Source: a virus (taxonomy: Duplodnaviria > Heunggongvirae > Uroviricota > Caudoviricetes). Taken from it: 43,601 bases of DNA. Below the pieces are notes generated by a model. It ran no database searches and was not told the DNA's origin. It saw only the letters and a program-made list of their open reading frames with translations. The stretch is taken from positions 1 through 43,601 of the IMG/VR virus record IMGVR_UViG_3300045988_013455, one strand, 5' to 3'. Below, one piece after another: positions 1 through 43,601 of the stretch (within the stretch, counting starts at the first letter, position 1; each line of letters opens with the position of its first letter). The position numbers and the translations under genes are program-made.

Positions 1-55
1 AGTCAGTAAGGTATTTGGTTTTATCCTTAAGCCAATTGCTAAGCTGTTTGGGCTG
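1..55. repeat. Terminal direct repeat, identical to 43547..43601 (circular-assembly overlap / genome junction)
   Basis: Exact 55-nt identity between the window start and end; the reading frame is continuous across the junction. Confidence 0.9.
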
Positions 56-4247: not shown

Positions 4248-4451
4248 CTACTCTTCAGATAACTTCTCCAGTACAAACGCCAGTTGCGCGTTAGCGGCGT
4301 CTCTTTGTTGCCGCAGGCGTAGAACCTCCTCCTCAAGTTCCTTGATACGTTTTATTTCTCGCTTTAACTGCATGGCAAGAAGTTGCTCTCGGGCATTAAG
4401 AGCGTCTTTTATCAATTCGTCGCAAGCGTCGATATCGAACTCATTATTCAT
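4248..4451 (-). CDS. Hypothetical coiled-coil protein (67 aa)
   Basis: Last gene of the leftward operon; start overlaps the helicase stop (ATGA). Confidence 0.4.
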   Translation of the reverse strand: MNNEFDIDACDELIKDALNAREQLLAMQLKREIKRIKELEEEVLRLRQQRDAANAQLAFVLEKLSEE

Positions 4452-15782: not shown

Positions 15783-16016
15783 TTATTCCAGGTCTTCTAA
15801 AGTGGCTGTCATTCCGCGAACTTCAGCAATGGCACTATATTTCCCACCAACATTTTTCACGACATCAGATTTAACCAGCACCTTCAACGACCCCTCAATA
15901 ATGGCGGAACTATAGTACTTAAAATAACTACGGCGCAAGTCCATAACGCTGCACGACCCTTTTTTACGTGTCAACGAAACTACCGCCGTAAATACACGCG
16001 ACTGGAACTCGGTCAT
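15783..16016 (-). CDS. Hypothetical protein (77 aa), ends LEDLE
   Basis: ORF in early leftward operon; ATGA overlap with upstream small HTH gene. Confidence 0.45.
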   Translation of the reverse strand: MTEFQSRVFTAVVSLTRKKGSCSVMDLRRSYFKYYSSAIIEGSLKVLVKSDVVKNVGGKYSAIAEVRGMTATLEDLE

Positions 16017-16183
16017 TTCACGTTCTCCTTAATCCACGCTTCCACTTTCTCCGGGTCAAACGTACCTGGCTGCCGGCGCCCCATAATGCGGATGCAACAA
16101 TCCGGGAACTTCCCACTCTTTAACCAGTTATTCAGCGTGCGACGAGTAACCCCGATGCGCTCAGCTACCTCATTCTGTGTCAT
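16013..16183 (-). CDS. AlpA-like small HTH DNA-binding protein (about 56 aa; not in ORF track)
   Basis: My own translation: MTQNEVAERIGVTRRTLNNWLKSGKFPDCC...; first gene after leftward early promoter. Confidence 0.5.
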   Translation of the reverse strand: MTQNEVAERIGVTRRTLNNWLKSGKFPDCCIRIMGRRQPGTFDPEKVEAWIKENVK

Positions 16184-16215
16184 TCTCAAACCCTCATTAT
16201 CAGTTAACGAAACCG

Positions 16216-16244: not shown

Positions 16245-16623
16245 ACATAATTGCACCTATTGACATTATGAAAATCTTCGTTTAAGGTGCTTCTGTATCT
16301 TAGTTACTTTGATTCCTGTTCACCTTGTAAAACCGCTTAAAACGCAGCTGCGCGCAGCGCAAGCAAAGTGTTAAGCGAAAGTTTACTGAACATAAGAATT
16401 ATCGTAACTTCCTCCCTAAGTATCTCCGGTTGCCCTGGGCAAGCTCTATTCTCATCGGCGGCATATCTCTTAAGTATCTGATTTTCTTAATGTGCCGTAG
16501 ATTCGCAACCGTAAAAATGTAACGATTATTGGGCAGGCTTAGGGCCTGCCCTTTAGTTACCAAGTAATAAGAATAAAGGCACAGCCCTACCTGAAGAATC
16601 ACAACGGCAACGTAACTATTCTC

Positions 16624-16652
16624 TTGCACACCCCAACATAATAGGTTACTAT
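16624..16652 (+). promoter_or_regulatory. Rightward early promoter (TTGCAC-17-TACTAT) with conserved leader
   Basis: TTGCACaccccaacataataggtTACTATtcac then AAACGAGACAGAGGAG before the ATG at 16678. Confidence 0.55.
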
Positions 16653-16677
16653 TCACTTATCGAAACGAGACAGAGGA

Positions 16678-17825: not shown

Positions 17826-17902
17826 TGTTCTATTTCACCAAACGCAACAATCGAAGAGACTATTGCAGGATATGCAACAATACAAACACCAATAAAATTT
17901 AC

Positions 17903-17931
17903 TTGCACGCTGGGATAGAGTAGACTACTAT
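17903..17931 (+). promoter_or_regulatory. Sigma70-like promoter (TTGCAC-17-TACTAT) with conserved leader
   Basis: TTGCACgctgggatagagtagacTACTATtcat then AAACGAGAGGGGAGA before the ATG. Confidence 0.55.
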
Positions 17932-17962
17932 TCATTTACACAAACGAGAGGGGAGACAGAAG

Positions 17963-19008: not shown

Positions 19009-19298
19009 CACTTGCAACTGACATCCTGAAACGAAGTGGCCTTGTGCCGCTGGCACCGGGAGCTAAAACACGGATATACAGGCGTCGCCATAACGCGCTG
19101 TACCCCGAGATTCAGGCCAGACGCAAAGCTGTCCGCGCCTGTGGGTTCCAGAACGGGAAGGCCGTGAATCTCGGTGAGTTCAAGACAAAGGAACGCGCCG
19201 CTATCGCTAATCGGTTATTTAATTACTGGAAATCACTGGGATACGATGATATTCCGACGAAACCACAGAGACGACAATACATCTGGAGACATAAATGA
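18981..19298 (+). CDS. Stand-alone AP2-like DNA-binding domain protein (105 aa)
   Basis: IYRRRHN...KAVNLGEFKTKERAAIANRLFNYWKSLG matches the AP2 pattern of HNH-AP2 endonucleases, without an HNH domain. Confidence 0.4.
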   Translation: MFSMRGEGMTLATDILKRSGLVPLAPGAKTRIYRRRHNALYPEIQARRKAVRACGFQNGKAVNLGEFKTKERAAIANRLFNYWKSLGYDDIPTKPQRRQYIWRHK

Positions 19299-19735
19299 CG
19301 ACTATCGCGTTTGACGGAAAGACAATGGCCTGTGACACCCGTGTTGTGTGCGGGAGTAACTGTTACAACACAGACACAAAGATATACGAGAATGACCATT
19401 TCATAATTGGGGTAGCCGGGGACGCAGGAGTTGGGGTTATGCTAATCCGTGATAATGGCGTACTTAATCCAAAATCATACGACTTCGATTTCGAAGCCCT
19501 TGTGTTCGTGAAAGACACAGAAAAGGTGTATAAAGTCGCGTTCTATAAATCATGGGATTGTGCGCTTAGTTCGGTTATTCCTGTTGCCGATAGCTTCGCC
19601 GCCGTGGGGTCTGGCGCGCCATATGCCCTGGCGGCTATGGAATGTGAGTATTCGGCACATGGTGGCGTAGCCGTCGCTTCAAAGTTTGACCCTAACACCG
19701 GCGGTAAGATTATTACCAAACAACTATTAGGATAA
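19295..19735 (+). CDS. HslV-like Ntn-hydrolase (proteasome beta-subunit-like peptidase)
   Basis: MTTIAFDG... N-terminal Thr after Met; FIIGVAGDAGVGV; AAVGSGAPYALAAME aligns with HslV GSGGPYAQAAARAL. Confidence 0.65.
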   Translation: MTTIAFDGKTMACDTRVVCGSNCYNTDTKIYENDHFIIGVAGDAGVGVMLIRDNGVLNPKSYDFDFEALVFVKDTEKVYKVAFYKSWDCALSSVIPVADSFAAVGSGAPYALAAMECEYSAHGGVAVASKFDPNTGGKIITKQLLG

Positions 19736-26779: not shown

Positions 26780-26965
26780 TTAGGCCTTACGAATTGTATA
26801 TTCATACCCGAGGTAGCCGTTTTTCTCTTGCATAGCGGAGGCACGCAGCAGAGCAGCATTCTCACCTTTAACTACAGCGACCACATAATCCGTAGAGTCT
26901 GGGCCATTTTCCACAACTTCATACGCCTGTAAGTTCTTGGTGGTAAGTTCATATGTGTTAGTCAT
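26780..26965 (-). CDS. Hypothetical protein (61 aa), antisense cassette A
   Basis: First gene after promoter; conserved leader AAACGAGAGATAAGGAA before ATG. Confidence 0.45.
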   Translation of the reverse strand: MTNTYELTTKNLQAYEVVENGPDSTDYVVAVVKGENAALLRASAMQEKNGYLGYEYTIRKA

Positions 26966-26998
26966 TTCTAAATTCCTTATCTCTCGTTTCGATAAGTG

Positions 26999-27027
26999 AA
27001 TAGTACCCTATTATATTGGTGTCTGCA
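26999..27027 (-). promoter_or_regulatory. Sigma70-like promoter (TTGCAG-17-TACTAT) driving antisense cassette A
   Basis: Minus strand TTGCAGacaccaatataatagggTACTATtcac then conserved leader. Confidence 0.55.
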
Positions 27028-27072
27028 AATATTATTTTTATGCGTTACACTGTCAATACTACAGGAGGGCCT

Positions 27073-28116: not shown

Positions 28117-28577
28117 TGATGGGCTTTTTCAAAGTAACTGATGTACCGTCGCGTCGCGTAGTCCAGTACGCCCGTGTGTCTGGCTCTGGCGAGAACGTGG
28201 TATTTATTGAAAATGAAAGTGTACTCGGTACACCAGTAGACGATATGCCGTTTGCTGATAAAACCGGTATTGCACTACCGGCGGCGGGTATGCTTTATGA
28301 AATTCCGTATCTGGCTGATGCTGGCGACGTGTATTTCTCTGCGCAACCGAAAGACGCTGAACTGGCAGACGGCAGCGCGACCATCACTGTCGAGGTTAAG
28401 GCTGGCAAAGCACCATATGCGTTGACCTGGTACAAAGACGGTAAGGAAGTAGTAAACGCCCCGGAAGAGGCCTTGTCTCTGACGGTTAACGCAGTCGGTG
28501 AATACTTCGTTAAGGTTACTGATGCTGATGGGGTAGAGGCCGTGAGTAAAGCGGCGAAGGTAGTTAAGCCAGAATGA
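28116..28577 (+). CDS. Ig-like domain protein (possible virion decoration/accessory protein)
   Basis: C-terminal TITVEVKAGKAPYALTWYKDGKEV...GEYFVKVTDADG resembles an Ig-like (Big/I-set) domain. Confidence 0.45.
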   Translation: MMGFFKVTDVPSRRVVQYARVSGSGENVVFIENESVLGTPVDDMPFADKTGIALPAAGMLYEIPYLADAGDVYFSAQPKDAELADGSATITVEVKAGKAPYALTWYKDGKEVVNAPEEALSLTVNAVGEYFVKVTDADGVEAVSKAAKVVKPE

Positions 28578-28610
28578 TAAAAGGCCCCGTTATGGGGCCT
28601 TAGTTTTATT
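28578..28610. terminator. Bidirectional rho-independent terminator
   Basis: AGGCCCC-gttat-GGGGCCT followed by TAGTTTTATT; A-rich on the other side. Confidence 0.7.
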
Positions 28611-28818
28611 CATGTGTCGCTGCTCTAAAATTAAGTTCTTCACGAGGGATAAACCCCCTATCAGTTTTTACATAACAAGTTGTGTAACTATACATTACCT
28701 CTCTGCCCGTGATATCTCCGTAGTTCTCACACCCGTGTTCATCTAAGCTACGTACACCGGCAGCAATTACCAGTGAAAATGCCAATGTCATCAATACCGA
28801 GATAATTAATTCTTTCAT
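28606..28818 (-). CDS. Small secreted/periplasmic protein (70 aa), antisense cassette B
   Basis: N-terminal signal-like MKELIISVLMTLAFSLVIAAG, two Cys in the mature part; own promoter and terminator. Confidence 0.5.
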   Translation of the reverse strand: MKELIISVLMTLAFSLVIAAGVRSLDEHGCENYGDITGREVMYSYTTCYVKTDRGFIPREELNFRAATHE

Positions 28819-28853
28819 CTTTAAGTTCCTTATCTCTCGTTTCGATGCAATGA

Positions 28854-28882
28854 ATAGTACCCTATTATATTGGTGCCTGCAA
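28854..28882 (-). promoter_or_regulatory. Sigma70-like promoter (TTGCAG-17-TACTAT) driving antisense cassette B
   Basis: Minus strand TTGCAGgcaccaatataatagggTACTATtcat then AAACGAGAGATAAGGAA. Confidence 0.55.
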
Positions 28883-28933
28883 ACTATTTAGCTATGTATT
28901 CCAGTTATTCCCTCAATTGTAAATGTTGGAATA

Positions 28934-28949
28934 AACTATTCGAATAGTT
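28934..28949. repeat. Perfect 16-bp palindrome AACTATTCGAATAGTT overlapping the -35 of the rightward promoter
   Basis: Self-complementary; half-site ACTATTC recurs in most phage promoters of this genome. Confidence 0.7.
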
Positions 28950-28976
28950 GACTTTTCACTAAAAATGTGCTAAGCT
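28948..28976 (+). promoter_or_regulatory. Sigma70-like promoter (TTGACT-17-TAAGCT, TG-extended)
   Basis: TTGACTtttcactaaaaatgTGcTAAGCT; transcribes an ORF-poor 200-nt segment ending at a hairpin. Confidence 0.5.
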
Positions 28977-28982
28977 CCACCT

Positions 28983-29180
28983 GAGCTTGTGAAGTATGAA
29001 CAAGCGACCGCGGCGCGGGCAGGTAACGGAGCTGGACGTAAGTCCTGAGTGTAGTTACGCTGACGCGTTCGGAAGGGCCATACTCTATTGCTTGTGTAAA
29101 AAGTAACTGGTTTACTGAGATTATGCCGTTTCTATGTTTAAATGATAAGGACTAGCGCCCCGCTTTAAGGCGGGGCTTTA
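28983..29180 (+). ncRNA. Candidate small RNA / structured leader (promoter-to-terminator unit without substantial ORF)
   Basis: About 200 nt between promoter and GCCCCGC-tttaag-GCGGGGC hairpin; only a 36-codon ORF with poor RBS. Confidence 0.25.
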
Positions 29181-29200
29181 CTTATCGAGAAAGGAGAAAC

Positions 29201-29587
29201 ATGAATCTTAAAGCAACTGTCGTAGCAGGAGCATGTTTCACCATCCTGGTCTACGCACACGGCATCTATCAGTACCGCAGCGGCTGGAACGAAGGCCGGG
29301 TGAATCTCGTTTCACAGCAACAGCAGAAAGCACAGGCTGAGTTAGCGAAGAAAACACAACGGCAGCAGCAGGATGAATCGAAGGCCGCAGCAGCCGACAA
29401 CGAAGGCAAGACGAAATCAGAGGTGATTACCCGTGAAGTCGTTAAGTACATTAGAACGCCTGGCCGCAGCGTGTGCACTTTTGACCCTGAGCGCGTGCAG
29501 CTCAAGTCCCGCGCCGTCGCCAACGCCAATTCCATACCCGGATACGACGATGATGCAGCCGCCGTGCAAACTGGCCGCACCAAGTAG
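29201..29587 (+). CDS. Rz-like inner-membrane spanin (i-spanin)
   Basis: N-terminal TMD ATVVAGACFTILVYA, Gln/Lys-rich coiled-coil region; RBS AAGGAGAAA. Confidence 0.6.
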   Translation: MNLKATVVAGACFTILVYAHGIYQYRSGWNEGRVNLVSQQQQKAQAELAKKTQRQQQDESKAAAADNEGKTKSEVITREVVKYIRTPGRSVCTFDPERVQLKSRAVANANSIPGYDDDAAAVQTGRTK

Positions 29588-29696
29588 CGACGCGGACGAG
29601 GATTTAGCTATTGACGTTCAGAACGCCGAATGCGTGCGGCAACTGCGTCTGAAAGTGTTTATGTTGCAGGACTACGTGAGGAATATTCTGGAATAG
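29433..29696 (+). CDS. Rz1-like outer-membrane lipoprotein spanin (o-spanin), embedded in +1 frame of Rz
   Basis: Lipobox LTLSAC followed by Pro-rich SSSPAPSPTPIPYP; starts inside Rz and extends past it. Confidence 0.6.
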   Translation: MKSLSTLERLAAACALLTLSACSSSPAPSPTPIPYPDTTMMQPPCKLAAPSSDADEDLAIDVQNAECVRQLRLKVFMLQDYVRNILE

Positions 29697-29778
29697 TTGC
29701 CTTGCATGTTGGAATAATTTATTCTTGACATGTAAATCCGGGTGGCCCGGATTCCAACGTCCAGGGGACATACTGACT

Positions 29779-30480
29779 ATGAATCGTTTTTTACGTTATC
29801 CGTTCCAGGAAGAAGCTGGAGCAGAAGATAAAGCCGGTGGCGGTGACGTGCCGAAAATGTTCACAGCCGAAGAAGTTCAGGCGCTGATTGAGAAAGAAGT
29901 TGCCGGGCTTAAGGCCAATCAGGAAGCATTGCTGGCGGAGAAGAAAGAAGCCGCTCGCAAAGCAAAAGAGGCTGAAGAAGAACGGCAGCGCGCACACCAG
30001 GAGGCGTTAAAAGCCGCTGGTAAGATGGACGAGTTTGAAAAGACGATTCGTAGCCAGTATGACCCGGTGTTAGCCGAGAAAGATGGTCGCATCTCCAAAA
30101 TGGCAGAGCGCATCCTCGGCAGCGAACGTAAAGCGGTGTTAGGCTCTTTCGCAGGTGATTTCATCACCCCGGAAGCGGTAGACATTCTTGCACCGTTCGT
30201 TAAGACTGAGTTCGAAGGCGATGATGTGGTTACTAAGTTTGTTGGTGCAGACGGCAATGTAATCACGACTGACCCGGAACAGTTCCGCAAATACCTGCGT
30301 GAACACAAAGCTTTTTCGCATTTGATTAAAGCAAATGCAGCTTCCGGCGGCGGGGCTTCCGGTAGCAAAGGCGGCGGGGCCGCACCAGCGTTTAAAGACA
30401 TGAGTGAAGCAGAGCGTTTAGCCCTGTATAAATCGAACCCTGCCGAATTTGAACGGCAACTTAAAGCCCTGAGGAAATAA
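29779..30480 (+). CDS. Putative scaffolding protein
   Basis: Helical, charged EKEVAGLKANQEALLAEKKEAARKAKEAEEERQRAHQ; immediately upstream of major capsid gene (track ORF from 29725). Confidence 0.55.
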   Translation: MNRFLRYPFQEEAGAEDKAGGGDVPKMFTAEEVQALIEKEVAGLKANQEALLAEKKEAARKAKEAEEERQRAHQEALKAAGKMDEFEKTIRSQYDPVLAEKDGRISKMAERILGSERKAVLGSFAGDFITPEAVDILAPFVKTEFEGDDVVTKFVGADGNVITTDPEQFRKYLREHKAFSHLIKANAASGGGASGSKGGGAAPAFKDMSEAERLALYKSNPAEFERQLKALRK

Positions 30481-30482
30481 TA

Positions 30483-31532
30483 ATGGCAATTACCACTATC
30501 GGCGATATCGTAACTGGCAACATCCCGGTCCTGGCGTCTTATATGACCGAGGACCCGGTAGAAAAAACCGCATTCTTCCAGTCTGGTATTCTGACCCCGA
30601 CCCCATACGCTGCCGAGATTGCCCGCGGCCCGTCCAACGTCGCTAATATTCCTTTCTGGAAAGCGATTGACACTTCCATCGAGCCGAACTACTCGAACGA
30701 CGTATACCAGGACATCGCTACCCCGCGTAACGTGCAGACCGGTGAGATGATGGCGCGCGTTGCGTACCTGAACGAAGGTTTTGGCCAGGCGGACCTGACT
30801 GTCGAACTGACCAGCCAGAACCCGCTGCAATCAGTAGCGTCCCGTCTGGATAACTTCTGGCAGCGCCAGGCACAACGCCGTCTGATCGCTACCGCGCTCG
30901 GTCTGTACAACGACAACGTAGCCGCTACCGACGCATACCACGAGCAGAATGACATGGTAATCGACGTGTCTGCTACTCTTGGCTTCGATGCGGGCGCGTT
31001 CATCGACGCTACCCAGACTATGGGTGATGCGCTGATGGGCAACGGCGGTGAAGTGCTGGGCGCTATCGCGATGCACAGCTTCGTTTATGCACAGGCCCGT
31101 AAGCAGCAGCTTATTGATTTCATCAAAGACGCTGACAACGACACCTTGTTCGCTACCTACCAGGGCTACCGCGTGATTGTTGACGACAGCATGACCGTAG
31201 TCGGTACTGGCCCTAGCCGTAAGTTCATCTCCATCATCTTCGGCAACGGCGCTATCGGTTACGGCGAAGGTTCTCCGTCCAACCCGCTGGAATACGAGCG
31301 CGAAGCGTCCCGCGGCAATGGCGGCGGCGTTGAAACCCTGTGGACCCGTAAGACCTGGTTGCTGCACCCACTGGGTTACAGCTTCACCAGCGCGGTAATC
31401 ACCGGCAACGGCACCGAGACTATCGCCCGCTCTGCTTCATGGCAGGACCTGGCGAATGCCTCCAACTGGAACCGTGTGGTTGAACGTAAGCATGTGCCGA
31501 TTGCCTTCCTGGTAACTGGTGTCGGTGCTTAA
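30483..31532 (+). CDS. Major capsid protein
   Basis: 349-aa ORF after scaffold, followed by a strong terminator; position and size typical. Confidence 0.7.
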   Translation: MAITTIGDIVTGNIPVLASYMTEDPVEKTAFFQSGILTPTPYAAEIARGPSNVANIPFWKAIDTSIEPNYSNDVYQDIATPRNVQTGEMMARVAYLNEGFGQADLTVELTSQNPLQSVASRLDNFWQRQAQRRLIATALGLYNDNVAATDAYHEQNDMVIDVSATLGFDAGAFIDATQTMGDALMGNGGEVLGAIAMHSFVYAQARKQQLIDFIKDADNDTLFATYQGYRVIVDDSMTVVGTGPSRKFISIIFGNGAIGYGEGSPSNPLEYEREASRGNGGGVETLWTRKTWLLHPLGYSFTSAVITGNGTETIARSASWQDLANASNWNRVVERKHVPIAFLVTGVGA

Positions 31533-31547
31533 GGTTAAGATATAATC

Positions 31548-31578
31548 GAGAGGGACTTCGGTCCCTCTTTTCATTTAC
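31548..31578 (+). terminator. Rho-independent terminator after major capsid gene
   Basis: GAGAGGGAC-ttcg-GTCCCTCTT followed by TTCATTT. Confidence 0.7.
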
Positions 31579-37864: not shown

Positions 37865-37879
37865 TGTTGGCGTGAGTGA

Positions 37880-37908
37880 ATAGTACCCTATTATATTGGG
37901 GCGCGCAA
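37880..37908 (-). promoter_or_regulatory. Sigma70-like promoter (TTGCGC-17-TACTAT) driving antisense cassette C
   Basis: Minus strand TTGCGCgccccaatataatagggTACTATtcac, same module as at 26999 and 28854. Confidence 0.5.
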
Positions 37909-38015
37909 GTAGTGTGCTAGAATAAGTTTGCGCCTAGTGTCGCACACGAAAAGCGGGTGGTTCCCGTCTGGCGCATTAACCTTAACCTGTAACCTCTTAA
38001 CCAAAGGATTAAAGA

Positions 38016-43385: not shown

Positions 43386-43601
43386 ATGGAGTTTGTCGTT
43401 AACCGTATCCCGGACGGCGTTCCGGTACGCGTCTATCTTGGCGAGATTGGTGATGATACAGACGTAACGGACGACTTCGATGCGCTTAAAGACGAAGACG
43501 CCGTGTACCATATTATCGAGGGTGCGGGTAGCGGGGCGCTCGGTGTAGTCAGTAAGGTATTTGGTTTTATCCTTAAGCCAATTGCTAAGCTGTTTGGGCT
43601 G
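43386..43601 (+). CDS. 5' part of the gpI/gpJ-like tail-tip gene (continues in frame at position 1; start ATG 43380 or 43386)
   Basis: DAVYHIIEGAGSGALGVVSKVFGFIL resembles the C-terminal segment of lambda gpI; no stop before the window end. Confidence 0.6.
   Translation, partial: MEFVVNRIPDGVPVRVYLGEIGDDTDVTDDFDALKDEDAVYHIIEGAGSGALGVVSKVFGFILKPIAKLFGL
43547..43601. repeat. Terminal direct repeat, identical to 1..55
   Basis: Exact 55-nt identity with the window start. Confidence 0.9.

What the first reader, a model, noticed from the sequence alone, without database searches (positions are those of the whole stretch)
28934..29180. ORF-poor promoter-to-terminator unit with palindromic operator: candidate sRNA or regulated leader upstream of spanins
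A TG-extended promoter at 28948..28976 overlaps a perfect 16-bp palindrome AACTATTCGAATAGTT. The transcript would run about 200 nt to a GC hairpin at 29157..29176 and contains only a 36-codon ORF with a poor RBS. This could be a small RNA, an attenuator controlling Rz/Rz1, or a very small basic peptide gene.
Basis: seen in the sequence. Interest (0 to 1): 0.5.

Follow-up and report, generated by a model that had tools for sequence, protein, structure and literature searches.

The report
Conserved structured leader RNA before spanins
The interval holds a promoter and a roughly 200-base non-coding, folded RNA ending in a hairpin; nearly all phages of this subfamily carry it ahead of their lysis-accessory and head genes, it matches no described RNA family, and its job (probably controlling late-gene transcription) is untested.

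Summary
The 16-bp palindrome (28934-28949), TTGACT-17-TGcTAAGCT promoter, GC hairpin (29157-29176) and 36-codon ORF are all where stated.

The ORF is not a gene. One-base indels truncate it in close relatives, and it is absent from a divergent allele.

The window is a complete Kagunavirus-like genome (Guernseyvirinae). The unit is present in about 450 related phage records. It is 97-98% identical between E. coli and Salmonella phages whose flanking genes are only 72-88% identical.

Its first ~110 nt fold into a 5' hairpin plus a long irregular hairpin, followed by the invariant tail UUCGGAAGGGCC…UAUUG. Compensatory changes support this fold, and one phage replaces the whole distal arm with a tetraloop. 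Rfam 15, E. coli genomes and the searched literature give no match.

Some relatives carry a second, co-oriented copy at the head of the rightward operon.

No other promoter was found ahead of the spanin, scaffold and capsid genes. I therefore read the unit as the structured leader of the late head operon, acting in cis on read-through of its own hairpin (lambda PR'/6S-like, possibly put-like). This mechanism is inferred, not shown. A trans-acting small RNA remains a serious rival.

The parts
28934..28949 (.). Perfect 16-bp palindrome AACTATTCGAATAGTT. Its centre lies about 41.5 bp upstream of the predicted start.
   Evidence: Conserved in type-A relatives. The T-type allele has a different dyad, TACTTT-N6-AAAGTA, at about the same place.
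28943..28956 (.). Operator-like dyad AATAGttgaCTtTT. It overlaps the right palindrome arm and the -35 hexamer, and is a one-mismatch copy of the genome-wide AATAG-N4-CTATT motif.
   Evidence: 12 hits with at most 1 mismatch against 1.1 expected; 0 of 100 shuffles reach 12.
28948..28976 (+). Predicted sigma-70 promoter P_A: -35 TTGACT (28948-28953), 17-bp spacer, extended -10 TGcTAAGCT (28968-28976).
   Evidence: Conservation pattern across the A, B and T alleles. Not called by the consensus scan.
28985..29005 (+). P1: 5'-terminal hairpin GCUUGU-gaaguauga-ACAAGC, starting about 3 nt after the predicted start (~28983).
   Evidence: Other alleles replace it with a different hairpin (ACGCU-uuc-AGCGU in T-type; an 8-bp GAUA-loop version in B3).
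29008..29072 (+). P2-P4: long irregular hairpin. It is closed by CCG/CGG, with a bulged C, tandem G.U pairs, a covarying pair (C-G / U-A / A-U) and GC pairs. The distal arm carries a GGA/GUA internal loop and a GUAA tetraloop.
   Evidence: SLMP1 replaces the whole distal arm with a GGAC tetraloop.
29068..29090 (+). Most conserved block, UUCGGAAGGGCCAuacuCUAUUG. UUCGG (29068-29072) is the 3' strand of the P2 base. The remainder is an apparently unpaired tail.
   Evidence: Invariant or near-invariant across the A, T and B1-B3 alleles. The covariance-model match in the window is 28981-29093, 127 bits.
29115..29129 (+). Second shared motif, CUGAGAUUAUGCCGU (consensus CUGAnAUU…GCCGU). It is present in every allele and also in the unrelated unit at 16260-16560.
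   Evidence: By eye, from the sequences printed. No statistical test was done.
29157..29185 (+). GC-rich hairpin (8 bp) followed by a short U tract (UUUACUUAU). Read as a terminator or attenuator-like 3' element.
   Evidence: Stem changes are compensatory in relatives (GCCCUGC/GCAGGGC; GCCCGAC/GUCGGGC). The hairpin in the T-type allele (UUAGCGUAU) and those in the B copies lack a usable U tract.
28996..29106 (+). 36-codon ORF; judged spurious.
29186..29203 (+). Ribosome-binding site GAAAGGAGAAAC and ATG of the i-spanin gene (29201-29587), about 10-25 nt after the hairpin. No intervening promoter was found.

Best explanation
**What is shown.** The interval is a non-coding transcription unit that is a core feature of Guernseyvirinae phages. 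It has a sigma-70-type promoter with an extended -10, overlapped by dyad symmetry. It encodes a ~200-nt RNA whose first ~110 nt form a conserved two-hairpin domain plus an invariant tail, UUCGGAAGGGCC…UAUUG. A stable GC hairpin sits about 25 nt before the i-spanin start codon.

**What is inferred.**
- P_A is the promoter for the spanin-scaffold-major capsid (and onward) late genes, so this RNA is their 5' leader.
- The hairpin stops part of the transcripts. That would give an abundant short RNA, as lambda PR'-tR' gives 6S RNA.
- The conserved 5' domain acts in cis on the transcribing polymerase or on the nascent terminator. That would let polymerases starting at P_A read through this hairpin and the later terminators at 31548, 36049 and 38568.
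- In other words, it would be a processive, put-like or otherwise factor-assisted antitermination leader.
- The dyad at the -35 would let a phage DNA-binding protein time the promoter.
For: **Not coding.** The ORF is broken in relatives.

**Structured RNA.**
- Each of about 10 sequence variants folds on its own into the same P1 + long-hairpin architecture.
- On the hand-drawn structure, 88% of cells pair against 30-44% for slid controls, with covariation 0.20 against at most 0.08.
- On the covariance-model alignment of 79 copies the figures are 92% against 31-41%, with 9 pairs changed on both sides. One pair occurs as CG 22, UA 17 and AU 3.
- In SLMP1 the arm is replaced by a tetraloop.

**Core element.**
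- About 179 type-A plus 268 T-type full-length records, against 467 records with the capsid gene.
- 97-98% identity inside flanks that are 72-88% identical.

**Leader position.**
- A bidirectional terminator (28581-28601) and a minus-strand gene lie upstream.
- No promoter-like site lies between 29200 and the capsid gene.
- The ribosome-binding site follows the hairpin directly.
- Further plus-strand terminator-like hairpins lie downstream.

**Second copy.**
- Some relatives have a second copy with the same promoter and 5' domain. It is co-oriented, 11.6-13 kb upstream, at the head of the rightward operon.
- The 3' hairpins of these second copies and of the T-type allele lack a usable U tract. 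Transcripts from these alleles should therefore continue downstream, unless Rho or RNA processing ends them.

**No protein partner seen.** No Q- or N-like protein was found among 11 regulators and small proteins scanned.
Against: - No transcript ends are mapped, and no expression data were found for any member.
- The promoter's -10 hexamer is weak, and the consensus scan does not call it.
- There is no sequence or structure similarity to HK022 putL or putR; only the architecture and placement are alike.
- In the second copies a separate promoter lies between the RNA and the genes. Such a unit could equally be a stand-alone RNA gene.
- Near-total conservation of the whole 250 bp, including non-structural positions, may reflect recent cassette exchange rather than constraint.
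- The window's own hairpin has a UUU tract and could simply be a leaky terminator that needs no RNA-mediated control.
- The 5-6-bp alternative pairing between GCGGCG and CGCCGU is not supported by covariation. It appears as GCGGC/GCCGU in the window's minimum-free-energy fold; the six-base form is in the common A-type allele.
Confidence: 0.42

Rival explanations
1. Trans-acting phage small RNA. The unit would be an independent RNA gene. Its product, ended at the hairpin or processed from the leader, would act on host or phage mRNAs or sequester a host protein. Its position before the spanins would be incidental.
For: - It is a discrete promoter-to-hairpin unit of ~200 nt.
- The whole cassette is 97-98% conserved across phages of E. 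coli, Salmonella and Raoultella.
- Second copies in relatives are followed by a separate promoter for the downstream genes.
- The site of that second copy holds alternative non-coding units in other phages.
- Modules recombine (L140).
- The tail and the 3' half are apparently unpaired and conserved, so they could serve as a seed or a protein-binding site.
Against: - No complementarity of 11 nt or more to any other phage transcript.
- The 3' ends lack the U-rich tail typical of Hfq-dependent small RNAs. In the second copies and the T-type allele there is no usable U tract at all.
- Every copy is co-oriented with an operon and sits directly upstream of it.
- The downstream head genes have no other visible promoter.
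- No similar sequence was found in E. coli genomes. That search detects homologs, not short base-pairing targets, so host targets remain untested.
Confidence: 0.27
2. Ordinary late promoter with a passive structured 5' UTR. P1 at the 5' end and the GC hairpin would merely stabilise or process the mRNA, or insulate it. The RNA would have no specific regulatory activity.
For: - A hairpin within about 3 nt of the 5' end is the classic arrangement for protection from 5'-end-dependent decay (established knowledge).
- The loop sequences of P1 and P4 are not conserved.
- The hairpin has a poor U tract.
Against: - A passive stabiliser would not need sequence-level invariance of CCGCGG…UUCGGAAGGGCC…UAUUG across alleles that otherwise differ by more than 30%.
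- It would not be expected to be copied together with its promoter to a second operon head.
- It would not be expected to keep a 65-nt arm with compensatory changes.
Confidence: 0.17
3. Ligand- or protein-sensing attenuator (riboswitch-like). The 5' domain would switch the 29157 hairpin on or off to control Rz/Rz1 and the head genes.
For: - The layout is an aptamer-like conserved domain followed about 65 nt later by a terminator-like hairpin.
- The hairpin stem keeps pairing through compensatory changes.
- The minimum-free-energy fold shows a possible alternative pairing, GCGGC/GCCGU, between the two most conserved motifs.
Against: - That alternative pairing is only 5-6 bp. It is not supported by the covarying position: the B3 allele has A opposite G.
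- Second copies and the T-type allele carry hairpins that cannot terminate intrinsically.
- No Rfam riboswitch match, even at E up to 10.
- SLMP1 lacks the whole distal arm.
Confidence: 0.08
4. Small basic peptide gene (36 aa), or a DNA-level element such as an origin or packaging site, rather than a functional RNA.
For: - An ATG-initiated 36-codon ORF exists and is intact in 23 of 39 copies examined.
- Some public records annotate a hypothetical protein here.
Against: - One-base indels truncate the ORF to 9 or 17 codons in 5 close relatives. The paralogous copies encode unrelated peptides, and the T-type allele has no start. There is no Shine-Dalgarno sequence.
- Compensatory changes in hairpin arms argue for a single-stranded nucleic acid and against a duplex-DNA site.
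Confidence: 0.04

Closest known systems
Lambda late leader: PR' promoter, 194-nt 6S RNA, tR' terminator, Q antitermination
   Same: - A promoter followed by a ~200-nt non-coding transcript that ends at a hairpin terminator.
- It sits directly upstream of lysis-related and morphogenesis genes that have no other visible promoter.
- A DNA element overlaps the promoter.
   Different: - No Q homolog was found.
- The initial transcribed region of the window lacks a usable -10-like pause element (TGAGCT has no A at position 2).
- Here the leader RNA itself is structurally conserved. Lambda's 6S RNA is not known to need a conserved fold (my knowledge).
- Holin and endolysin lie elsewhere in this genome (Bas70 annotation).
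HK022 put RNAs (putL, putR): protein-independent processive antiterminator RNAs
   Same: - Promoter-proximal position.
- Two stem-loops with bulges, joined by a very short linker.
- In some genomes, two similar copies at the heads of two long operons that contain terminators.
- No dedicated protein factor is evident (PMC9378689).
   Different: - No detectable sequence or structure homology: model R1 scores at most 7.5 bits on the HK022 put regions.
- The size and helix details differ (put is ~70 nt; here the domain is 35-90 nt plus a conserved tail).
- The second copy is present in only a minority of phages.
- Activity and dependence on the beta' zinc-binding domain are untested.
Lambda/P22 nut sites (boxA + boxB) with N protein
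   Same: - A cis-acting RNA signal near operon starts.
- A hairpin plus a conserved linear element; in some alleles the CUCUAUUG tail loosely resembles boxA.
   Different: - The P1 loop is not conserved, whereas boxB loops are.
- The boxA-like positions vary freely (ACUCU, AGUCU, AAUCU, GCUAU, GCCCU).
- No N-like arginine-rich protein was identified.
Phage-encoded or 5'-UTR-derived small RNAs (for example lambda OOP, P22 sar)
   Same: A short, promoter-to-hairpin non-coding transcript in a phage genome.
   Different: - It is not antisense to any gene.
- No complementarity of 11 nt or more elsewhere in the phage.
- It lacks an Hfq-type U-rich 3' end.

Membership tests
Any Rfam 15 family | Covariance-model match at or near the gathering score | tested here: not met
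   No gathering-score hit in the whole window. In 28550-29300, only chance-level hits (at most 18.6 bits against 35-70 needed) at E up to 10.
HK022 put RNA | Sequence and structure homology to putL or putR | tested here: not met
   The put regions were located in HK022. Model R1 gives no hit there (best 7.5 bits elsewhere in the locus). Rfam has no put model, so this is the only homology test available.
HK022 put RNA | Two stem-loops just downstream of a promoter, with copies at the heads of operons that contain terminators | tested here: inconclusive
   The architecture and placement are similar. The window itself has a single copy, and a similar layout is not proof of membership.
HK022 put RNA | Makes RNA polymerase terminator-resistant in cis through the beta' zinc-binding domain, without protein factors | not testable with these tools
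   Needs in vitro transcription or reporters in rpoC zinc-binding-domain mutants.
Lambda-type Q / PR' late leader | Promoter, ~200-nt non-coding RNA and intrinsic terminator directly upstream of late genes | tested here: met
Lambda-type Q / PR' late leader | A Q-family antiterminator gene in the genome | tested here: not met
   Pfam and PHROGs scans of 11 candidate small or regulatory proteins found only an AlpA-like HTH_17 protein, a sub-threshold NinH-like helix-turn-helix protein, an HslV-like peptidase and unknowns. Not every ORF was scanned.
Lambda-type Q / PR' late leader | A -10-like sigma-dependent pause element in the initial transcribed region | tested here: not met
   The window has TGAGCT at about +2 to +7, with no A at position 2. 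The T-type allele does repeat its own -10 (TACGCT) there.
Hfq-type trans-acting small RNA | Rho-independent terminator with a long U tail, plus a seed complementary to targets | tested here: inconclusive
   The U tract is UUUACUU in the window and is absent in the second copies and the T-type allele. No complementarity of 11 nt or more within the phage. Host transcriptome targets were not tested.
Small protein gene | Reading frame and start codon conserved among relatives | tested here: not met

The most novel reading that the evidence does not exclude
The two-hairpin domain plus the UUCGGAAGGGCC…UAUUG tail is a second, unrelated family of protein-independent RNA antiterminators (functionally put-like). 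It would bind E. coli or Salmonella RNA polymerase as it is made and drive late-gene expression in a whole subfamily of virulent phages. Interchangeable leader cassettes would sit at two operon heads.
Probability: 0.18. Interest if true: 0.75.

Novelty: new member of a known kind. Interest (0 to 1): 0.5.

Why it matters
- Guernseyvirinae (Jersey-like and K1G-like phages) are widely isolated and are used in Salmonella and E. coli biocontrol and therapy work. Members are in the BASEL collection.
- They encode no RNA polymerase, and I found nothing published on how their late genes are timed.
- The unit is an ultra-conserved, structured, promoter-proximal RNA in front of the scaffold and capsid genes. 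It is currently unannotated or mis-annotated as a 'hypothetical protein'. That makes it a concrete, easily testable handle on late-gene control.
- If it acts on RNA polymerase by itself, it would add to the only well-studied phage example of this mechanism that I know of (HK022 put).
- If it acts in trans, it would be a core phage small RNA shared across enterobacterial hosts.
- Either way it deserves an RNA-family entry, and the ORF call should be removed.

Tried and rejected
- **Rfam** at gathering and permissive thresholds: nothing. **tRNA/tmRNA scan:** none.
- **The 36-aa ORF as a gene:** rejected on frameshifts.
- **'ACTATTC' as a shared operator half-site:** mostly explained by the -10 hexamer TACTAT of a six-copy promoter family, TTGCAC-17-TACTAT. 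It was replaced by the better-supported dyad AATAG-N4-CTATT. The everted CTATT-N2-AATAG form is unique to this site.
- **Second copy of the RNA in the window:** none by motif or covariance model. The site where relatives hold their second copy holds a different RNA here.
- **Complementary targets within the phage:** none of 11 nt or more (that script also printed a large trivial self-antisense output and timed out before its shuffle control).
- **Homolog in E. coli genomes:** none.
- **Wider homologs:** the metagenome and genome-collection scans used too loose a motif. They returned mostly chance hits, and only Guernseyvirinae-like contigs carried the real element.
- **boxA, T-loop, CsrA-site and K-turn resemblances:** considered by eye and not pursued, because the relevant positions vary or are paired.
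- **Alternative antiterminator pairing GCGGCG/CGCCGU:** not supported by covariation.
- **Literature:** searches for transcriptome or small-RNA work on this subfamily found nothing relevant.
- **MAFFT alignment:** MAFFT alone mis-aligned the variable arm, so RNAalifold recovered only the P2 base. This was resolved by per-sequence folding and a covariance-model alignment.

Full report
**Context.** The window is a complete, circularly permuted phage genome; bases 1-55 repeat at 43547-43601. By nucleotide similarity it belongs to Kagunavirus, subfamily Guernseyvirinae. The finding lies between two sets of features. Upstream are a bidirectional terminator (28581-28601) and a small minus-strand 'moron' gene (28606-28818). 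Downstream are the i-spanin (29201-29587), the embedded o-spanin (29433-29696), the scaffold gene (29725-30480) and the major capsid gene (30483-31532).

**Observation.**
- the perfect palindrome at 28934-28949;
- TTGACT, a 17-bp spacer and TGcTAAGCT at 28948-28976;
- the hairpin at 29157-29176 followed by TTTACTTATC;
- the lone 36-codon ORF at 28996-29106, with no Shine-Dalgarno sequence.

Two cautions apply. First, the consensus promoter scan does not call this promoter, because TAAGCT matches only 3 of 6 positions. Its support is comparative: the -35, the TG, the A2/T6 of the -10 and the 17-bp spacing are kept in every allele, while the N of TGN and the spacer bases vary. Second, one perfect 16-nt palindrome in 43.5 kb is not significant by itself (shuffle mean 0.64).

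**Not a peptide gene.** I examined 39 copies from relatives.
- The ORF is intact in 23.
- One-base indels cut it to 9 codons in four A-site copies and to 17 codons in one.
- The paralogous copies encode unrelated sequence after residue 6.
- The divergent 'T-type' allele has no equivalent start codon.

**A conserved, discrete cassette.**
- The type-A sequence is found at 95-99% identity in about 230 phage records, from Escherichia, Salmonella, Shigella and Raoultella hosts. In most records it is unannotated or called 'hypothetical protein'.
- A second allele (T-type; for example T102, wksl3, SLMP1) occupies the same position in 268 further Jerseyvirus records.
- Together these roughly equal the 467 records that carry the capsid gene.
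- Against the Salmonella phages skrot and SETP13, the flanking genes are 72-88% identical (i-spanin 73%, capsid 83%). The interval 28934-29185 is 97-98% identical.
- This is either very strong constraint or recent cassette exchange. Recombinants between modules do exist (L140: the palindrome and P_A joined to a B-type RNA body).
- There is no homolog in 5,426 complete E. coli genomes.

**RNA structure.**
- All alleles share a 5'-terminal hairpin P1. Its sequence differs between alleles: GCUUGU…ACAAGC, ACGCU-uuc-AGCGU, or an 8-bp version with a GAUA loop.
- One or two nucleotides follow, and then a long irregular hairpin. Its base is invariant: CCG/CGG, a bulged C and two G.U pairs.
- The next pair occurs as C-G, U-A or A-U.
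- The distal arm differs in sequence but keeps pairing. SLMP1 replaces the whole arm with a GGAC tetraloop.
- Each variant, folded alone, gives this same architecture.
- Pair counts on a hand-drawn structure give 88% pairing against 30-44% when partners are slid. The covariation score is 0.20 against at most 0.08.
- A covariance model (R1) recovers 79 copies in 76 loci. On that alignment 92% of cells pair, against 31-41% for the controls, and 9 pairs change on both sides. That alignment is fitted to the model, so it leans towards the structure.
- After the hairpin comes the most conserved stretch, (UUCGG)AAGGGCC-R-N4-5-UAUUG. I found no convincing pairing partner for it.
- The 3' half is A/U-rich and poorly structured. 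It keeps a motif, CUGAnAUU…GCCGU, in all alleles (seen by eye, not tested).
- The terminal GC hairpin keeps its stem through compensatory changes.
- The whole-RNA folding z-score is modest for the window (-1.6) and better for the minimal SLMP1 form (-2.5). The comparative evidence carries the argument; thermodynamics alone would not.

**Paralogous copies.**
- Many Kagunavirus contigs carry a second copy with the same promoter, the same P1 and core, a different distal arm and a different 3' part (variants B1, B2, B3).
- It lies in the divergent control region, between the AlpA-like helix-turn-helix gene and the rightward operon of small genes.
- It is co-oriented with the first copy and lies 11.6-13 kb upstream of it.
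- These copies lack the palindrome. Their 3' hairpins have no U tract, and a separate promoter follows them.
- The window itself has only the one copy. At the equivalent site (16260-16560) it has a different, strongly structured non-coding unit (z = -4.4), which is itself conserved in about 300 records. The 3' half of that unit is homologous to the 3' half of the B copies.

**The palindrome.**
- Its half-sites CTATT and AATAG are those of a dyad, AATAG-N4-CTATT. That dyad occurs 12 times (at most 1 mismatch) against 1.1 expected, mostly at promoter regions (promoter context read).
- It lies in the spacer of three leftward TTGACA-17-TATAGT promoters, and over the -10 of the TTGCAC-17-TACTAT family, which includes the moron promoters.
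- One one-mismatch copy, AATAGttgaCTtTT (28943-28956), overlaps the -35 of P_A.
- A phage DNA-binding protein that recognises this dyad is therefore a reasonable controller of P_A. The palindrome centre at about -41.5 would also fit an activator.
- Neither possibility is tested. The T-type allele has a different dyad at this place.

**Mechanism.**
- What is shown: a non-coding, structured, subfamily-wide RNA element with its own conserved promoter-like sequence and a 3' hairpin.
- What is inferred: P_A must feed the spanin, scaffold and capsid genes. A bidirectional terminator and an opposing gene lie upstream, no promoter-like site lies between the hairpin and the capsid gene, and the spanin ribosome-binding site follows the hairpin within about 25 nt.
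- A strong promoter immediately followed by a terminator-like hairpin ahead of the most highly expressed late genes is the lambda PR'-6S-tR' logic. Further terminator-like hairpins lie downstream at 31548, 36049 and 38568.
- The conserved fold begins 3 nt from the start. In some phages the same promoter-plus-fold is copied to the head of the other long rightward operon. No Q- or N-like protein was found.
- The reading I favour is therefore a cis-acting leader that promotes read-through, in the manner of HK022 put RNA (PMC9378689).
- It is not a put homolog. R1 does not hit putL or putR, and Rfam has no put model to test against.
- I put this reading at about 0.4.

**Rivals.**
- A trans-acting small RNA is the main rival (about 0.27). 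In its favour: the unit is discrete, the second copies are followed by their own promoter, and the tail and 3' half could be a seed or a protein site. Against it: the poor or absent U tracts, the lack of complementarity of 11 nt or more within the phage, and the constant placement at operon heads.
- A passive stabilising 5' UTR (about 0.17) does not explain the sequence-level invariance of the P2 base and tail.
- A riboswitch-like attenuator (about 0.08) lacks a supported alternative pairing.
- The peptide or DNA-element readings (about 0.04) are contradicted by the frameshifts and by the compensatory changes.

**Novelty and verdict.** There is no Rfam family, no annotation as RNA in the public records I viewed, and no paper found in the searched library. 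I rate it as a new RNA family of a known general kind (phage promoter-proximal leader or small RNA). Interest is moderate. It is well supported as an element, it is directly testable in available phages, and its mechanism is still open.

Noticed in passing
window 16260-16560 (+): A second non-coding unit lies between the AlpA-like helix-turn-helix gene (16013-16189, minus strand) and the rightward small-gene operon. It has a TTGACA-17-TAAGGT promoter and a ~270-nt strongly structured RNA (z = -4.4, 0 of 200 shuffles fold as well). It ends in the hairpin GGGCAGGCttaggGCCTGCCC + UUUAGUU. About 300 records conserve it at 70-98% identity. Its 3' half (…UAAGUAUCUGAUUU…UGCCGUAGAUUCGCAACCG…) is homologous to the 3' half of the second-copy leader RNAs in relatives. 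The 85-aa minus-strand ORF at 16399-16656 is probably spurious.
   Followed up: partly
window 6592, 10149, 12825, 12870, 16640, 17919, 20948, 26999, 28853, 28943, 37879: An operator-like dyad, AATAG-N4-CTATT, is present 12 times (at most 1 mismatch) against 1.1 expected, mostly at promoter regions. This suggests one phage regulator controls the leftward replication-gene promoters, the rightward early promoters and the moron promoters.
   Followed up: partly
window 16615-16655 and 17895-17935 (+); 26962-27029, 28815-28883 and 37877-37909 (promoters for minus-strand genes): A repeated ~35-70-bp promoter-plus-5'-UTR cassette (TTGCAC-17-TACTAT, then …CGAAACGAGAGATAAGGAA…ATG) precedes the small minus-strand 'moron' genes inserted in the structural region, and also the rightward early genes. 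The moron slot at 28606-28818 holds different genes in skrot and SETP13 and none in T102.
   Followed up: partly
L044 ~4335-4352; L056 (Golestan); L140 and L148: The second-copy leaders contain a (CUCA)n repeat of variable length (3 to 6 or more units) just before their 3' hairpin. It is C-rich and G-poor, so it could be a Rho-loading site. Not examined further.
   Followed up: no
L002/L003/L004 (T-type allele), ~30-40 nt upstream of ACCGCGG: In the T-type allele the -10 hexamer TACGCT is repeated exactly 9 bp downstream (TACGCTaccTACGCT), at about +1 to +6. That is the position of the sigma-dependent pause element at lambda PR'. The window's allele has TGAGCT there instead.
   Followed up: no
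window 19295-19735 (+): A 146-aa protein matches the HslV/proteasome-subunit peptidase family (PHROG 1040, E = 2.5e-34; Pfam Proteasome, 23.4 bits). It lies in the early/middle region, upstream of the holin-endolysin genes.
   Followed up: no
window 1-55 and 43547-43601: An identical 55-bp repeat at both ends shows that the window is a whole circularly permuted genome of 43,546 bp.
   Followed up: yes
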